A stretch of 64,000 nt of DNA, from NCBI RefSeq assembly GCF_003334315.1, contig NZ_QOWR01000006.1, one strand, 5' to 3'. Position numbers: made by a program. Positions 15,001-18,000 of this stretch are shown here, piece after piece. Position 1 is the first letter of the stretch. The number at the start of each line of letters is the position of its first letter. Source of the DNA: Escherichia coli (lineage in GTDB: Bacteria; Pseudomonadota; Gammaproteobacteria; Enterobacterales; Enterobacteriaceae).

Positions 15001-18000
15001 TGCAATAATGCAACGACTTGCCACGCAGTATGGTTCCCGTTTTACCCCTTGCGAGCGTTTGGTCGAGATGGGCGCGCGTGGGGAAAGTTTTTGGAAAACA
15101 ACTGCAACTGACCTGCAATAAGAAGGTCAAAGCTATATGAATCCGCGCTGAATGGCGGAGTGTTGGTCAAAATGTAAACGCATATTGACTATACTTACGC
15201 CATTGAGGTAAAAAACAGCGTTTCATTCGGTGAATGGATAAGGCACAATGCCGGCCACCGTTTTCTTTCTCTGGTTTCAGATGAAAGAAAACGGGCGAAT
15301 CTGGTTAACAAAAGCGGTGCAATATGCAAGTTTTTATCATGCGTCACGGCGACGCAGCCCTCGATGCCGCCAGTGATTCCGTTCGTCCTCTGACCACTAA
15401 TGGTTGTGACGAATCTCGCCTGATGGCGAACTGGCTGAAAGGTCAAAAAGTGGAAATCGAACGCGTTCTGGTGAGCCCGTTCCTGCGAGCCGAGCAAACA
15501 CTGGAAGAAGTAGGGGATTGTCTGAACCTGCCTTCCAGTGCAGAAGTTCTGCCGGAGTTAACGCCCTGCGGCGATGTTGGTCTGGTCAGTGCCTATTTAC
15601 AGGCGTTGACCAATGAAGGTGTTGCTTCGGTACTGGTGATCTCTCACTTACCGTTAGTCGGGTATCTGGTTGCCGAGTTATGTCCGGGCGAAACGCCGCC
15701 TATGTTTACCACCTCGGCCATTGCCAGCGTAACGCTTGATGAAAGCGGAAACGGCACATTCAACTGGCAGATGAGCCCGTGTAATCTGAAGATGGCAAAA
15801 GCTATCTGATGAGTTCCAAATTATGCCCAATGAGGTAGATTCATTGGGCATAATTGCTCATCAGGCAGCGGATATCTGTCAACCTCACTACTATCGAAGA
15901 CTCTCCCCATCTATAAATAAAACACCTTTAACTTTCATTCGGAAAGTATTCTTCTGCGCGTATCTTGATTTTGCCCAAAGTTACATGTTGAAATGAATAA
16001 TGTCTGTTTGACACTCATTATCATTTATTAATACAGATAATGGAGAAAATAGAGTTGAATAATCAGGCAGGACGTAATTGAAACTTGATTAAATTCTGGC
16101 TATAGTGTTTATATATTATATCGACAAAAGCGGGTTAATGCCAATCGCATTATATGTTCATTGTTTGTTTTTTAAGCTATTGGCATTCATTGTTGATATG
16201 CTTCCTGTTTTTTCTAAATATATATTTCGTGTTTTTTTAGAAGATCCTTAAGATAATCTTTCCCCTATCAATATATTAATTAAATCTACATTTACTCATT
16301 AGTAAAATTAAATTGAATCAGGGGAGTGAAAACATCACTATTCGACCCCACACCAACGAATACATTTTTTACGACCTGTTTTTTTGGATCGCATGCCGTA
16401 TTCAATGGCTGGGTATAAACATTGGCTATTGACTGAATCAATGTATTGCAATGTTTATATTTTAATTATTTATAGTTTAAGGACAAATAATGAGTAAGTT
16501 TGTTAAAACAGCTATTGCTGCGGCAATGGTGATGGGCGCGTTCACCTCTACGGCAACAATCGCTGCGGGTAACAACGGTACTGCACGTTTTTACGGCACC
16601 ATTGAAGACTCAGTGTGTTCTATCGTTCCGGACGATCACAAACTGGAAGTTGATATGGGTGATATCGGTGCCGAAAAACTGAAAAATAACGGCACCACCA
16701 CGCCGAAAAATTTCCAGATTCGCCTGCAAGATTGCGTATTTGATACTCAGGAAACAATGACCACTACCTTTACTGGTACCGTTTCTTCTGCAAATAGCGG
16801 CAATTATTACACCATTTTCAATACCGATACCGGTGCGGCATTTAACAATGTTAGCCTGGCGATCGGTGACTCTCTGGGTACCTCTTACAAAAGCGGCATG
16901 GGTATTGACCAGAAAATCGTGAAAGATACTGCCACTAATAAAGGCAAAGCGAAGCAGACTCTGAACTTTAAAGCCTGGCTGGTCGGCGCAGCTGATGCGC
17001 CAGATCTGGGTAATTTCGAAGCAAATACCACCTTCCAGATTACTTACCTGTAAGGCATACCCCCATAGCGACACTGCTATGGGGTATTTAAATGGATTTT
17101 GACCGAACAAGAATAAAAACGGATAAAAACGTGTATGCCTGACCATTCTCTTTTTCGATTACGGATTCTTCCGTGGTGCATTGCGCTGGCAATGTCAGGG
17201 AGTTATAGCAGTGTCTGGGCTGAAGACGACATTCAGTTTGATTCCCGTTTTCTGGAATTAAAAGGCGACACAAAAATTGATCTGAAGCGTTTTTCCAGCC
17301 AGGGGTATGTTGAGCCCGGAAAATACAATTTACAGGTTCAACTAAATAAACAGCCATTGGCGGAAGAGTACGATATTTACTGGTATGCTGGTGAAGATGA
17401 CGTTAGCAAAAGCTATGCTTGTCTGACACCGGAACTGGTGGCGCAGTTTGGTTTAAAAGAAGACGTGGCGAAAAATCTGCAATGGAGCCACGATGGTAAA
17501 TGCCTGAAGCCCGGTCAACTGGAAGGCATGGAAATTAAGGCTGATTTAAGCCAGTCCGCATTAGTCATTTCACTACCGCAGGCTTACCTCGAATATACCT
17601 GGCCCGACTGGGATCCACCTTCTCGTTGGGATGATGGCATCTCCGGGATCATTGCGGACTACAGCATCACTGCGCAAACACGACACGAAGAAAATGGCGG
17701 CGATGACAGTAACGAGATCAGCGGCAACGGGACGGTCGGGGTTAACCTGGGGCCATGGCGTATGCGCGCTGACTGGCAGACCAACTATCAACATACGCGC
17801 AGTAATGATGATGACGATGAATTTGGCGGCGATGACACACAAAAAAAATGGGAGTGGAGTCGCTATTATGCCTGGCGGGCGTTACCGTCATTAAAAGCCA
17901 AACTGGCGCTGGGCGAAGATTACCTCAATTCCGATATTTTCGACGGTTTTAATTATGTTGGTGGCAGTGTCAGCACTGACGATCAAATGTTGCCTCCCAA

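What the first reader, a model, noticed from the sequence alone, without database searches (positions are those of the whole stretch)
15810..16489. 680-bp AT-rich leader upstream of the fimbrial operon, with palindromes and a GATC pair
This is the longest non-coding stretch in the window and is strongly AT-rich, typical of H-NS-silenced fimbrial promoters. It contains a 9-bp inverted repeat, AATGCCAAT around 16138 and ATTGGCATT around 16180, about 35 bp apart. Two GATC sites lie at 16243-16246 and 16387-16390, 144 bp apart. The inverted repeats are too close for a fim-type invertible switch, but Dam/Lrp-type or repressor-based control is plausible.
Basis: partly seen in the sequence, partly recalled or inferred. 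Interest (0 to 1): 0.3.

Follow-up and report, generated by a model that had tools for sequence, protein, structure and literature searches.

The report
Silenced control region of yfc fimbriae
This AT-rich stretch is the already described, H-NS-bound control region in front of the cryptic yfc fimbrial operon of a K-12-like E. coli, and the palindrome and GATC pair that drew attention are chance features of one allele, not a switch.

Summary
Window 15810-16489 is the sixA-yfcV intergenic region of E. coli and is 100% identical to K-12 MG1655. GC is 31.9% against 50.6% for the window, and it is the longest non-coding gap. AATGCCAAT is at 16137, ATTGGCATT at 16179, and GATC at 16243 and 16387.

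The two motifs carry no signal. Two GATCs in 680 bp is the chance number, and a 9-nt inverted repeat appears in about 35% of shuffles. The right arm and GATC-1 exist only in the K-12 allele, in at most 1,225 of 5,426 complete genomes. The closest sister alleles lack both. No inverted variant was seen.

Published work already lists this spacer as an H-NS-bound "promoter island". It also reports sigma70 and sigmaS RNA polymerase binding peaks and a predicted promoter, TTGAAA-17-TATAGT (16078-16106). H-NS silencing is therefore supported. Pap-type Dam/Lrp control fails its defining tests, because the spacing is 144 bp rather than 102 bp and there is no PapI-like gene.

The more interesting result came from comparing alleles. 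The spacer is hypervariable between lineages but keeps small conserved islands: a symmetric -10 box (16112-16121) and a conserved inverted repeat at 16353-16408. These are untested leads. Verdict: already known, low interest.

The parts
15810..16489 (+). sixA-yfcV intergenic region: promoter region plus long leader of the yfc fimbrial operon. 680 nt, 31.9% GC.
   Evidence: It is 100% identical to K-12 MG1655 NC_000913.3 2455647-2456326.
15801..15869 (.). Long hairpin spanning the sixA stop codon, the probable sixA terminator. The core is a 15-nt perfect inverted repeat, 15819-15833 / 15841-15855.
   Evidence: -40.6 kcal/mol, z -6.8. There is no U-run after it on the + strand, but TTTT follows it on the - strand (complement of 15797-15800). 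Other alleles carry a GC-stem plus T-run terminator at the same place.
16025..16513 (.). Published 'promoter island' yfcV/sixA (U00096.2 2453647, 489 bp), reported as H-NS-bound.
   Evidence: PMC3661553 Table 1. The conversion to window coordinates is my own, assuming a 1976-bp offset between U00096.2 and NC_000913.3, good to 1-2 bp.
16078..16106 (+). Sigma70 promoter-like site TTGAAA-17-TATAGT, the promoter proposed for yfcV from RpoD genomic SELEX. It would give a 5' leader of about 380 nt.
   Evidence: 10/12 match. PMC3946193 lists exactly this hexamer pair for yfcV. It is present in only 7 of 15 alleles or species.
16115..16144 (-). Near-consensus sigma70 promoter-like site TTGGCA-18-TATAAT, pointing away from yfcV toward sixA.
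   Evidence: 11/12. A properly spaced -35/-10 pair sits at this aligned position in all 13 full-length Escherichia sequences: 10-11/12 in 11 of them and 8/12 in the B2-type. No transcript data are available.
16112..16121 (.). Most conserved upstream box, TATATTATAT (AATATTATAT in most alleles). It contains a symmetric -10 element, TATTATA (16114-16120), readable on both strands.
   Evidence: It is intact in most alleles, including Pseudocitrobacter corydidari, where the operon sits at another locus. It is diverged in O157, the B2-type and both E. albertii alleles.
16137..16187 (.).
   Evidence: The right arm reads GTTGAYATT or ATTGATATT in the closest alleles. The K-12 form is in at most 1,225 of 5,426 genomes.
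16243..16246 (.). GATC-1, specific to the K-12 allele.
   Evidence: AGAAGATCC here, AGGATGTCC in sister alleles, AGAAAATCC in O157.
16387..16390 (.). GATC-2, moderately conserved. It lies between the two arms of the conserved inverted repeat.
   Evidence: It is kept in the K-12 family, the O157 type, E69, E. whittamii and MOD1. One search shows it absent from the B2-type, the 3426-type, Pseudocitrobacter and E. albertii.
16353..16408 (+). Conserved imperfect inverted repeat CCAnnGAATA (16353-16362) / TATTCnnTGG (16399-16408). It is a candidate RNA helix in the leader or a protein-binding site.
   Evidence: All 8 pairs are kept in 11 sequences. One-sided changes go only to G-U (6 cells), with 1 break and no compensatory double change. 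The spacer length varies between alleles.
16414..16459 (.). 11-nt inverted repeat TATAAACATTG / CAATGTTTATA.
   Evidence: An A-U to G-C change on both sides is seen in 3 of the 10 sequences in the first alignment. It is not recovered as a consensus helix in the wider set.
16479..16492 (+). Shine-Dalgarno AAGGA (16479-16483) and the yfcV ATG (16490-16492). Together with the adjoining bases this block is almost invariant in all alleles.
16490..22908 (+). The yfcV-yfcU-yfcS-yfcR-yfcQ-yfcP-yfcO operon. It holds structural genes only and no regulator. The usher is intact here.

Best explanation
The region is the cis-regulatory region of the cryptic yfc (Stf/Ste-like) chaperone-usher fimbrial operon of a K-12-like E. 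coli.

Shown:
- It is the sixA-yfcV spacer and is identical to MG1655.
- It is strongly AT-rich.
- Published ChIP and SELEX data report that it binds H-NS and RNA polymerase (sigma70 and sigmaS holoenzymes).
- The operon is reported as silent under laboratory conditions.

Inferred mechanism:
- H-NS coats the roughly 450-500 bp AT-rich tract (about 16025-16513). It traps or excludes RNA polymerase at the core promoter around 16078-16126.
- The core promoter is the K-12-specific TTGAAA-17-TATAGT, and/or the conserved symmetric -10 box TATTATA.
- Little full-length mRNA is therefore made unless an anti-silencer or overexpressed regulator relieves the repression. TosR in CFT073 and BolA in K-12 are reported to raise yfcV mRNA.
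- When transcribed, yfcV would carry a leader of about 365-380 nt containing the conserved blocks at 16299-16317, 16330-16362, 16399-16420 and 16452-16489.

The 9-nt palindrome and the two GATC sites are incidental products of AT-rich sequence in one allele and have no dedicated role.
For: Identity and context. The spacer is 100% identical to K-12, and the window is 99.76% identical to K-12 over 48.9 kb.

Composition.

Operon content: showing StfA/StfD/usher-like structural genes only.

Published occupancy on the same sequence:
- Promoter island with H-NS binding in two ChIP studies (PMC3661553).
- RpoD SELEX peak with TTGAAA-17-TATAGT and an H-NS flag (PMC3946193). This is the same site found independently.
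- RpoS holoenzyme SELEX peak in the spacer (PMC5493296).

Expression:
- yfc is reported as cryptic, and H-NS repression is reported for cryptic chaperone-usher fimbriae of commensal strains (PMC3559732).
- yfcV is induced on TosR overexpression in CFT073 (PMC5956150) and on BolA overexpression (PMC4337573).

Incidental nature of the motifs:
- GATC count and a 9-nt repeat are at chance level.
- The right arm and GATC-1 are confined to the K-12 allele, in at most 1,225 of 5,426 genomes.
- No inversion variants were seen.
Against: - No transcription start site data for this spacer could be retrieved. The active promoter and the length of the leader are therefore inferred.
- Relative to composition-matched shuffles, my simple scan found no excess of promoter-like sites (4 against 4.2). 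'Promoter island' rests on the published PlatProm analysis.
- H-NS nucleation-motif matches are only mildly enriched: 3 two-mismatch matches in 680 bp against 82 in 64 kb.
- The TosR data come from CFT073, whose spacer allele I did not check. If it carries the B2-type allele, as I assume, that allele is only about 44% identical to this one.
- The strongest and best conserved promoter-like site points away from yfcV. Plain silencing does not explain this.
Confidence: 0.85

Rival explanations
1. Pap-type epigenetic phase switch. Lrp would bind alternately at two sites that each contain a GATC, and Dam methylation would lock the ON or OFF state.
For: Two GATC sites lie upstream of a fimbrial operon. 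The usher is related, at a distance, to Salmonella StdB. From my own knowledge, not tested here, the std operon is Dam-regulated. Both GATCs are preceded by TGTTTTTTTNGA (family D5).
Against: - The family signature is two GATC boxes at 102-bp spacing plus a PapI-like protein (PMC2909390). Here the spacing is 144 bp and the number of GATCs is what chance gives.
- GATC-1 is missing in every other allele examined, including those 92-96% identical.
- GATC-2 is missing in the B2-type allele (1,206 genomes), the 3426-type allele (634 genomes), E. albertii and Pseudocitrobacter.
- No PapI/PapB-like ORF is present.
- The two T-run contexts are out of register with the GATC by 3 nt.
- No paper in the library links yfcV with Dam or Lrp control.
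Confidence: 0.03
2. The palindrome AATGCCAAT-N33-ATTGGCATT is the operator of a dimeric repressor that controls yfcV.
For: The repeat is real and extends to 12 nt with one mismatch. A CsiR ChIP-seq peak was reported at U00096.2 2454000, which is about window 16160 and lies between the arms. It came with a 1.9-fold change in yfcV (PMC5217608).
Against: - A 9-nt repeat is found in about 35% of shuffles.
- The right arm is unique to the K-12 allele. Sister alleles read GTTGATATT, GTTGACATT or ATTGATATT, and no other allele has a repeat here.
- The arms are 33 nt apart, which is unusual for a dimer operator.
- The left arm is better explained as the -35 (TTGGCA) of the conserved minus-strand promoter-like site.
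- The CsiR effect is small and came from overexpression.
Confidence: 0.05
3. Invertible DNA switch. The inverted repeats would flank a segment flipped by a site-specific recombinase.
For: Inverted repeats are present upstream of a fimbrial operon.
Against: - The arms enclose only 27-33 nt.
- No recombinase gene is adjacent.
- All 1,225 K-12-type genomes match the 131-nt segment at 99% or better in one orientation, and only 1 genome falls in the 95-99% band.
- The longer-range repeat pairs are short and imperfect.
Confidence: 0.01
4. Beyond H-NS silencing, the spacer carries a dedicated conserved control module. One part is a bidirectional core promoter built on the symmetric -10 TATTATA, with a strong leftward partner that makes a roughly 310-nt divergent RNA ending at the sixA hairpin. 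The other part is a structured mRNA leader, or a protein site, formed by the conserved repeat CCAnnGAATA / TATTCnnTGG. Together these would set yfc expression after or during transcription.
For: - The conserved islands sit in an otherwise unalignable spacer.
- A minus-strand -35/-10 pair is at the same aligned position in 13 of 13 full-length Escherichia sequences.
- The box and the proximal blocks persist in Pseudocitrobacter, where the operon follows sspB rather than sixA.
- All 8 core pairs of the repeat are kept, with only G-U-compatible one-sided changes, and the loop length varies.
- The sixA hairpin is followed by TTTT on the minus strand.
Against: - No transcript or start-site data are available.
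- The sequence that the leftward RNA would cover is not conserved: 18-42% identity between deep alleles.
- The minus-strand -35 is not kept in Pseudocitrobacter (my reading).
- In the wider alignment the consensus fold is only -3 kcal/mol, has no compensatory pair, and loses helices 2 and 3.
- There is no Rfam match.
- Conservation of AT-rich boxes could simply reflect promoter and ribosome-binding constraints.
Confidence: 0.3

Closest known systems
H-NS-bound 'promoter islands' and cryptic chaperone-usher fimbrial promoters of E. coli K-12 (upstream of yadN, yehD/yehE, ecpR, fimE/fimA and others)
   Same: Same genome and the same listed class. It is an AT-rich spacer upstream of a fimbrial major-subunit gene, binds RNA polymerase and H-NS, and is poorly transcribed. 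This very spacer is entry 2453647_489 in the published list.
   Different: Nothing categorical. Compared with fim it has no invertible element and no local regulators.
pap/sfa/daa/fae/pef-type Dam-Lrp-PapI phase-variation region
   Same: It lies upstream of a chaperone-usher fimbrial operon and contains two GATC sites.
   Different: The spacing is 144 bp rather than 102 bp. One site is allele-specific. There is no PapI/PapB-like gene, and the GATC count is at chance.
fimS invertible promoter element
   Same: A 9-bp inverted repeat upstream of a fimbrial gene.
   Different: The arms are 33 nt apart, whereas fimS arms flank a promoter segment of about 300 bp (from my own knowledge). No recombinase genes are adjacent, and no orientation variants occur in 1,225 genomes.
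Bidirectional promoters with a shared symmetric -10 element (described for E. coli by Warman and colleagues, 2021; recalled from memory, not retrieved here)
   Same: TATTATA at 16114-16120 reads as TATTAT on the + strand and TATAAT on the - strand. This geometry gives divergent start sites about 18 bp apart.
   Different: No start-site data exist for this locus. The + strand partner has only a weak -35 (8-9/12).

Membership tests
H-NS-silenced AT-rich promoter region ('promoter island') | AT content well above the genome background over several hundred bp | tested here: met
   31.9% GC against 50.6% for the window, with a minimum of 26.5% in a 200-nt window.
H-NS-silenced AT-rich promoter region ('promoter island') | H-NS occupancy in vivo and de-repression without H-NS | not testable with these tools
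   For the identical K-12 sequence, H-NS binding is reported in the Kahramanoglou and Oshima ChIP data (PMC3661553 Table 1) and by an H-NS flag in PMC3946193. De-repression of yfc specifically was not seen in a paper I could read. PMC3559732 cites it for cryptic fimbriae in general.
H-NS-silenced AT-rich promoter region ('promoter island') | Unusually high density of promoter-like sites | tested here: inconclusive
   A simple scan found 4 sites against 4.2 in composition-matched shuffles. The published PlatProm analysis lists it among 78 islands.
Pap-type Dam/Lrp/PapI phase switch | Two conserved GATC boxes at 102-bp spacing | tested here: not met
   The spacing is 144 bp. GATC-1 is only in the K-12 allele and GATC-2 is absent from several allele classes. 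The signature is as stated in PMC2909390.
Pap-type Dam/Lrp/PapI phase switch | PapI-like (and PapB-like) regulator gene next to the operon | tested here: not met
   No annotated or conserved ORF lies in the spacer. Small ORFs hit no family. Six of the seven operon proteins match fimbrial structural families, and YfcO, annotated as the adhesin, matched none.
Pap-type Dam/Lrp/PapI phase switch | Lrp binding that overlaps the GATC sites, and differential methylation | not testable with these tools
   No paper in the library links yfcV to Lrp or Dam control.
OxyR- or HdfR-type Dam switches (agn43, gtr, std) | Three or more GATC sites clustered within one regulator binding region | tested here: not met
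   Only two GATCs are present in 680 nt, 144 bp apart. The family feature is from PMC2909390 and my own knowledge.
fim-type invertible switch | Inverted repeats flanking a promoter-carrying segment of a few hundred bp, with adjacent recombinase genes | tested here: not met
   The arms enclose 27-33 nt. The neighbours are sixA and yfcV, with no recombinase.
fim-type invertible switch | Both orientations found among isolates | tested here: not met
   1,225 genomes match at 99% or better in one orientation, and 1 falls in the 95-99% band.
Chaperone-usher fimbrial operon (Yfc, Stf/Ste-like) | Major subunit, usher, periplasmic chaperone and minor subunits in one operon | tested here: met
   NCBIfam matches: StfA-like subunit, usher subfamily NF011812 (1889 bits, above its cut-off), StfD-like chaperone, and StfE/F/G-like minor subunits. 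The annotation agrees.
Intrinsic terminator (for sixA) | Stable stem-loop followed by a U-run | tested here: inconclusive
   The stem is very stable (-40.6 kcal/mol), but no U-run follows it on the + strand, and the consensus scan found no terminator. Other alleles have a stem plus T-run at the same position. On the - strand, TTTT follows the stem.
Known RNA families (Rfam 15) | Covariance-model match | tested here: not met
   No match up to E=1 in 15000-17500 on either strand.

The most novel reading that the evidence does not exclude
The hypervariable sixA-yfcV spacer hides a small conserved control module that moves with the Yfc/Stf-like operon between loci and genera. One part is a symmetric -10 box (TATTATA, 16114-16120) that serves a bidirectional core promoter, whose stronger arm fires away from the operon. 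The other part is a leader of about 370 nt whose conserved repeat CCAnnGAATA / TATTCnnTGG (16353-16408) forms an RNA helix or a protein site that gates yfcV expression. Neither element has been described.
Probability: 0.3. Interest if true: 0.4.

Novelty: already known. Interest (0 to 1): 0.13.

Why it matters
As it stands, little. The spacer is a catalogued H-NS target in the best-studied bacterium, and the motifs that prompted the finding are chance features of one allele. The practical value is negative evidence: yfc should not be counted among Dam/Lrp or invertible phase-variable fimbriae on the basis of this sequence.

The by-product has modest value. yfcV is widely used as a marker gene in isolate-typing studies (several such surveys appear), and almost nothing is known about how Yfc fimbriae are switched on. 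The allele map shows four major spacer and yfcV allele classes, plus rarer ones, with a sharp boundary at the sixA stop codon. The short list of conserved boxes gives defined targets for mutagenesis.

Tried and rejected
- Rfam scan of 15000-17500 at E up to 1: nothing.
- Coding potential: small ORFs in the spacer hit no NCBIfam or Pfam family. They are also broken by 1-nt indels between near-identical alleles, so there is no hidden regulator or leader peptide.
- H-NS nucleation motif TCGATAAATT: only 3 two-mismatch matches in the spacer, against 82 in the window. This is suggestive but not significant.
- CRP-like site AGTGA-N5-TCACT at 16325-16339: wrong spacing for CRP, and the left half is not conserved. 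Dropped (my reading).
- IHF-like WATCAANNNNTTR matches at 16265 and 16436: expected in AT-rich DNA and not conserved. Dropped.
- Transcription start data could not be obtained. The Cappable-seq supplement is held only in truncated form. The paper id I recalled for Thomason 2015 (PMC4288677) returned nothing. The Romero 2014 supplement does not mention yfcV or sixA.
- RNA structure of the leader. The first alignment gave three helices with 94.5% of cells paired and 3 compensatory pairs. After adding E. albertii and Pseudocitrobacter, only the 8-pair core of helix 1 survived, at -3 kcal/mol and with no compensatory pair. I do not claim a structured RNA.
- A repeated or mobile origin for the sixA hairpin: the median number of matching places per genome is 1, so it is not a dispersed repeat.
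Full report
WHAT THE REGION IS

Window 15810-16489 lies between ORF 15324-15809 and ORF 16490-17053. Megablast against 5,426 complete E. coli genomes places it between sixA and yfcV in every genome. The annotation of a 100%-identical strain shows fadI-fadJ-sixA upstream and yfcV-yfcU-yfcS-yfcR-yfcQ-yfcP-yfcO downstream. The spacer is 100% identical to K-12 MG1655 NC_000913.3 2455647-2456326. The window as a whole is 99.76% identical to MG1655 over 48.9 kb. NCBIfam scans identify six of the seven operon proteins as a StfA-like major subunit, an usher, a StfD-like chaperone and StfE/F/G-like minor subunits. 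The seventh, YfcO, matched no family. No regulator is encoded.

CHECK OF THE OBSERVATION

Every sequence fact is right to within 1 nt.
- AATGCCAAT starts at 16137 and ATTGGCATT at 16179, with 33 nt between the arms. The repeat extends to 12 nt with one mismatch.
- GATC is at 16243 and 16387.
- GC is 31.9% against 50.6% for the window.
- It is the longest inter-gene gap in the window. The next largest gaps are about 365 nt.

The two motifs are not above chance.
- GATC occurs once per 259 bp in the window.
- Dinucleotide shuffles of the 680 nt average 2.3 GATCs, and 69% of them have two or more.
- About 35% of shuffles contain a perfect inverted repeat of at least 9 nt within 60 nt.
- The spacer does have an excess of inverted repeats overall: 3 against 0.34 expected, reached in 0.6% of shuffles. 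That excess comes from a 15-nt hairpin just after sixA and an 11-nt pair at 16414-16459.

CONSERVATION TEST OF THE MOTIFS

I aligned the spacer from 15 alleles and species. The set comprised:
- K-12.
- Three sister alleles that are 92-96% identical over the spacer.
- Deep allele classes: the O157/23CRST011 type, the 3426 type, the B2/LF82 type and E69.
- E. whittamii and two unnamed Escherichia species.
- Two E. albertii alleles.
- Pseudocitrobacter.
- One metagenomic relative.

The right arm of the palindrome exists only in the K-12 allele. The nearest alleles read GTTGATATT, GTTGACATT or ATTGATATT. GATC-1 is also specific to K-12: it reads AGGATGTCC in the sister alleles and AGAAAATCC in O157.

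A 131-nt query covering both features matches at 99% or better in 1,225 of 5,426 genomes. It matches at about 86-87% in about 1,755 genomes and not at all in about 2,400. All 1,225 are in one orientation, so there is no sign of inversion.

GATC-2 is kept in about half of the deep classes. It is absent from the B2-type allele (1,206 genomes), the 3426-type allele (634 genomes), E. albertii and Pseudocitrobacter.

WHAT IS ALREADY PUBLISHED FOR THIS SEQUENCE

- Panyukov and Ozoline list 'yfcV(-)/sixA(-) 2453647_489' among 78 promoter islands of MG1655. These are regions dense in promoter-like signals that bind RNA polymerase but make little full-length RNA. The entry is marked as H-NS-bound in the Kahramanoglou and Oshima ChIP data (PMC3661553). 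By my conversion this is window about 16025-16513.
- Shimada and colleagues found an RpoD-holoenzyme SELEX peak in this spacer. They assigned the promoter TTGAAA-17-TATAGT to yfcV and added an H-NS flag (PMC3946193). The independent scan found the same site at 16078-16106.
- An RpoS-holoenzyme SELEX peak also falls in the spacer (PMC5493296).
- Wurpel and colleagues describe yfc as a core, functional but cryptic operon, and cite H-NS repression of cryptic chaperone-usher fimbriae in commensal strains (PMC3559732).
- yfcV mRNA rises on overexpression of the PapB-family regulator TosR in CFT073 (PMC5956150) and of BolA (PMC4337573).
- An overexpressed-CsiR ChIP-seq peak with a 1.9-fold effect on yfcV was also reported (PMC5217608).
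- No paper in the library links yfcV to Dam, Lrp or phase variation.

MECHANISM

The best-supported reading is an H-NS-silenced promoter region plus a long leader. H-NS occupies the AT-rich tract together with RNA polymerase, and productive transcription is rare unless an anti-silencer acts. The identity of the spacer, its composition and the occupancy data are shown. The position of the active promoter, and therefore a leader of about 365-380 nt, is inferred, because I could not retrieve start-site data.

COMPARISON WITH KNOWN SWITCHES

- Pap-type. The signature is two GATC boxes at 102-bp spacing plus a PapI-like protein (PMC2909390). Here the spacing is 144 bp, one site is allele-specific, and no PapI/PapB-like ORF exists. 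Membership fails.
- OxyR- or HdfR-type Dam switches need clustered GATCs, which are not present.
- A fim-type inversion is excluded by the 27-33 nt between the arms, the lack of a recombinase gene and the absence of orientation variants.

WHAT ELSE THE COMPARISON SHOWED

The spacer and yfcV are hypervariable between E. coli lineages, while sixA is nearly invariant.
- Deep allele classes share only 44-57% identity over the spacer.
- The left half, 15870-16070, is essentially unalignable at 18-42% identity.
- YfcV of the B2 type is 71% identical to the K-12 protein.

Within this noise a few islands are conserved.

(A) Box TATATTATAT at 16112-16121.
- It reads AATATTATAT in most alleles.
- Its core TATTATA reads as a -10 element on both strands.
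- A correctly spaced -35 is present at this aligned position in all 13 full-length Escherichia sequences.
- The published plus-strand promoter is present in only 7 of 15.
- The plus-strand partner using TATTAT or TATATT is weaker (8-9/12) but is present in 11 of 15.

(B) Blocks at 16299-16317.

(C/D) Repeat CCAnnGAATA (16353-16362) and TATTCnnTGG (16399-16408).
- This is an imperfect inverted repeat that brackets GATC-2.
- All eight core pairs are kept in 11 sequences.
- One-sided changes go only to G-U (6 cells), with one break.
- The spacer between the arms varies in length.

(E) The Shine-Dalgarno and start region.

Box A and blocks C-E persist in Pseudocitrobacter, where the operon follows sspB rather than sixA. 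They therefore belong to the operon. This points to a real core promoter and a functional leader or protein site.

The evidence is thin, however.
- In the wider alignment the consensus fold is only -3 kcal/mol and has no compensatory pair.
- There is no Rfam match.
- No transcript data are available.

I report it as a lead with a probability of about 0.3.

THE sixA HAIRPIN

The sixA stop codon sits inside a very stable hairpin, 15801-15869 (-40.6 kcal/mol, z -6.8). No U-run follows it on the plus strand, but TTTT follows it on the minus strand. Other alleles have a classical stem plus T-run at the same place.

VERDICT

The Dam/Lrp and operator ideas are not. The feature is already known and of low interest.

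Noticed in passing
window 16115-16144 (- strand): The best promoter-like site in the spacer (TTGGCA-18-TATAAT, 11/12) points away from yfcV. A properly spaced -35/-10 pair sits at the same aligned position in all 13 full-length Escherichia sequences, although the surrounding sequence is scrambled. The -10 is symmetric (TATTATA, 16114-16120), so the promoter may be bidirectional.
   Followed up: partly
window 16353-16362 and 16399-16408: A conserved imperfect inverted repeat, CCAnnGAATA / TATTCnnTGG, brackets GATC-2. It is kept from E. coli to Pseudocitrobacter, with only G-U-compatible one-sided changes and a variable spacer length. It could be an RNA helix in a long yfcV leader or a protein site.
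   Followed up: partly
window 15801-15869: A very stable hairpin (-40.6 kcal/mol) contains the sixA stop codon. It has no U-run on the sixA strand, but TTTT follows it on the opposite strand. Other alleles have a classical terminator at the same place.
   Followed up: partly
window 15810-17053; loci L004-L009, L017-L020: There is a sharp boundary of divergence at the sixA stop codon. sixA is nearly invariant, but the spacer and yfcV fall into four major allele classes plus rarer ones. The K-12 family is in 3,069 genomes, the B2/LF82 type in 1,206, the 3426 type in 634 and the O157 type in 429. Spacer identity between deep classes is 44-57%, and YfcV identity is as low as 71%.
   Followed up: yes
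window 16130-16260: Within the K-12 allele family this 131-nt segment is only 85-90% identical between sister alleles, while its flanks are 91-98% identical.
   Followed up: partly
window 17135-19780 (yfcU): The usher gene is intact here (881 aa). MG1655 has a stop at codon 579 (TAC to TAG, nt 1737 of the gene) and annotates yfcU as a pseudogene. The operon in this strain could therefore be functional.
   Followed up: yes
L026 (strain XJW9B277), about window 16010-16020; L001 9436-10399; hit H51: IS1 insertions recur at this locus. One lies in the spacer upstream of the conserved box in XJW9B277. One lies in the B2-type spacer of AREA_494 (position not examined). One lies inside yfcU in strain HH194M.
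   Followed up: partly
L021 (Pseudocitrobacter corydidari) and L025 (metagenome): The yfcV-like operon sits downstream of sspB (rplM-rpsI-sspA-sspB in L021) instead of sixA. In Pseudocitrobacter it keeps the same upstream boxes, so the operon moved together with its control region.
   Followed up: partly
L013 (JAIJJM010000567.1): A 2.2-kb contig in a MAG labelled Collinsella sp. carries an E. coli sixA-yfcV spacer of the 3426 type. This is almost certainly binning contamination.
   Followed up: no
window 26000-28000, 42000-44000, 62000-64000: The 92 mismatches against MG1655 are clustered: 23, 14 and 32 fall in these 2-kb bins. This suggests small recombination patches in an otherwise K-12-like background.
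   Followed up: no
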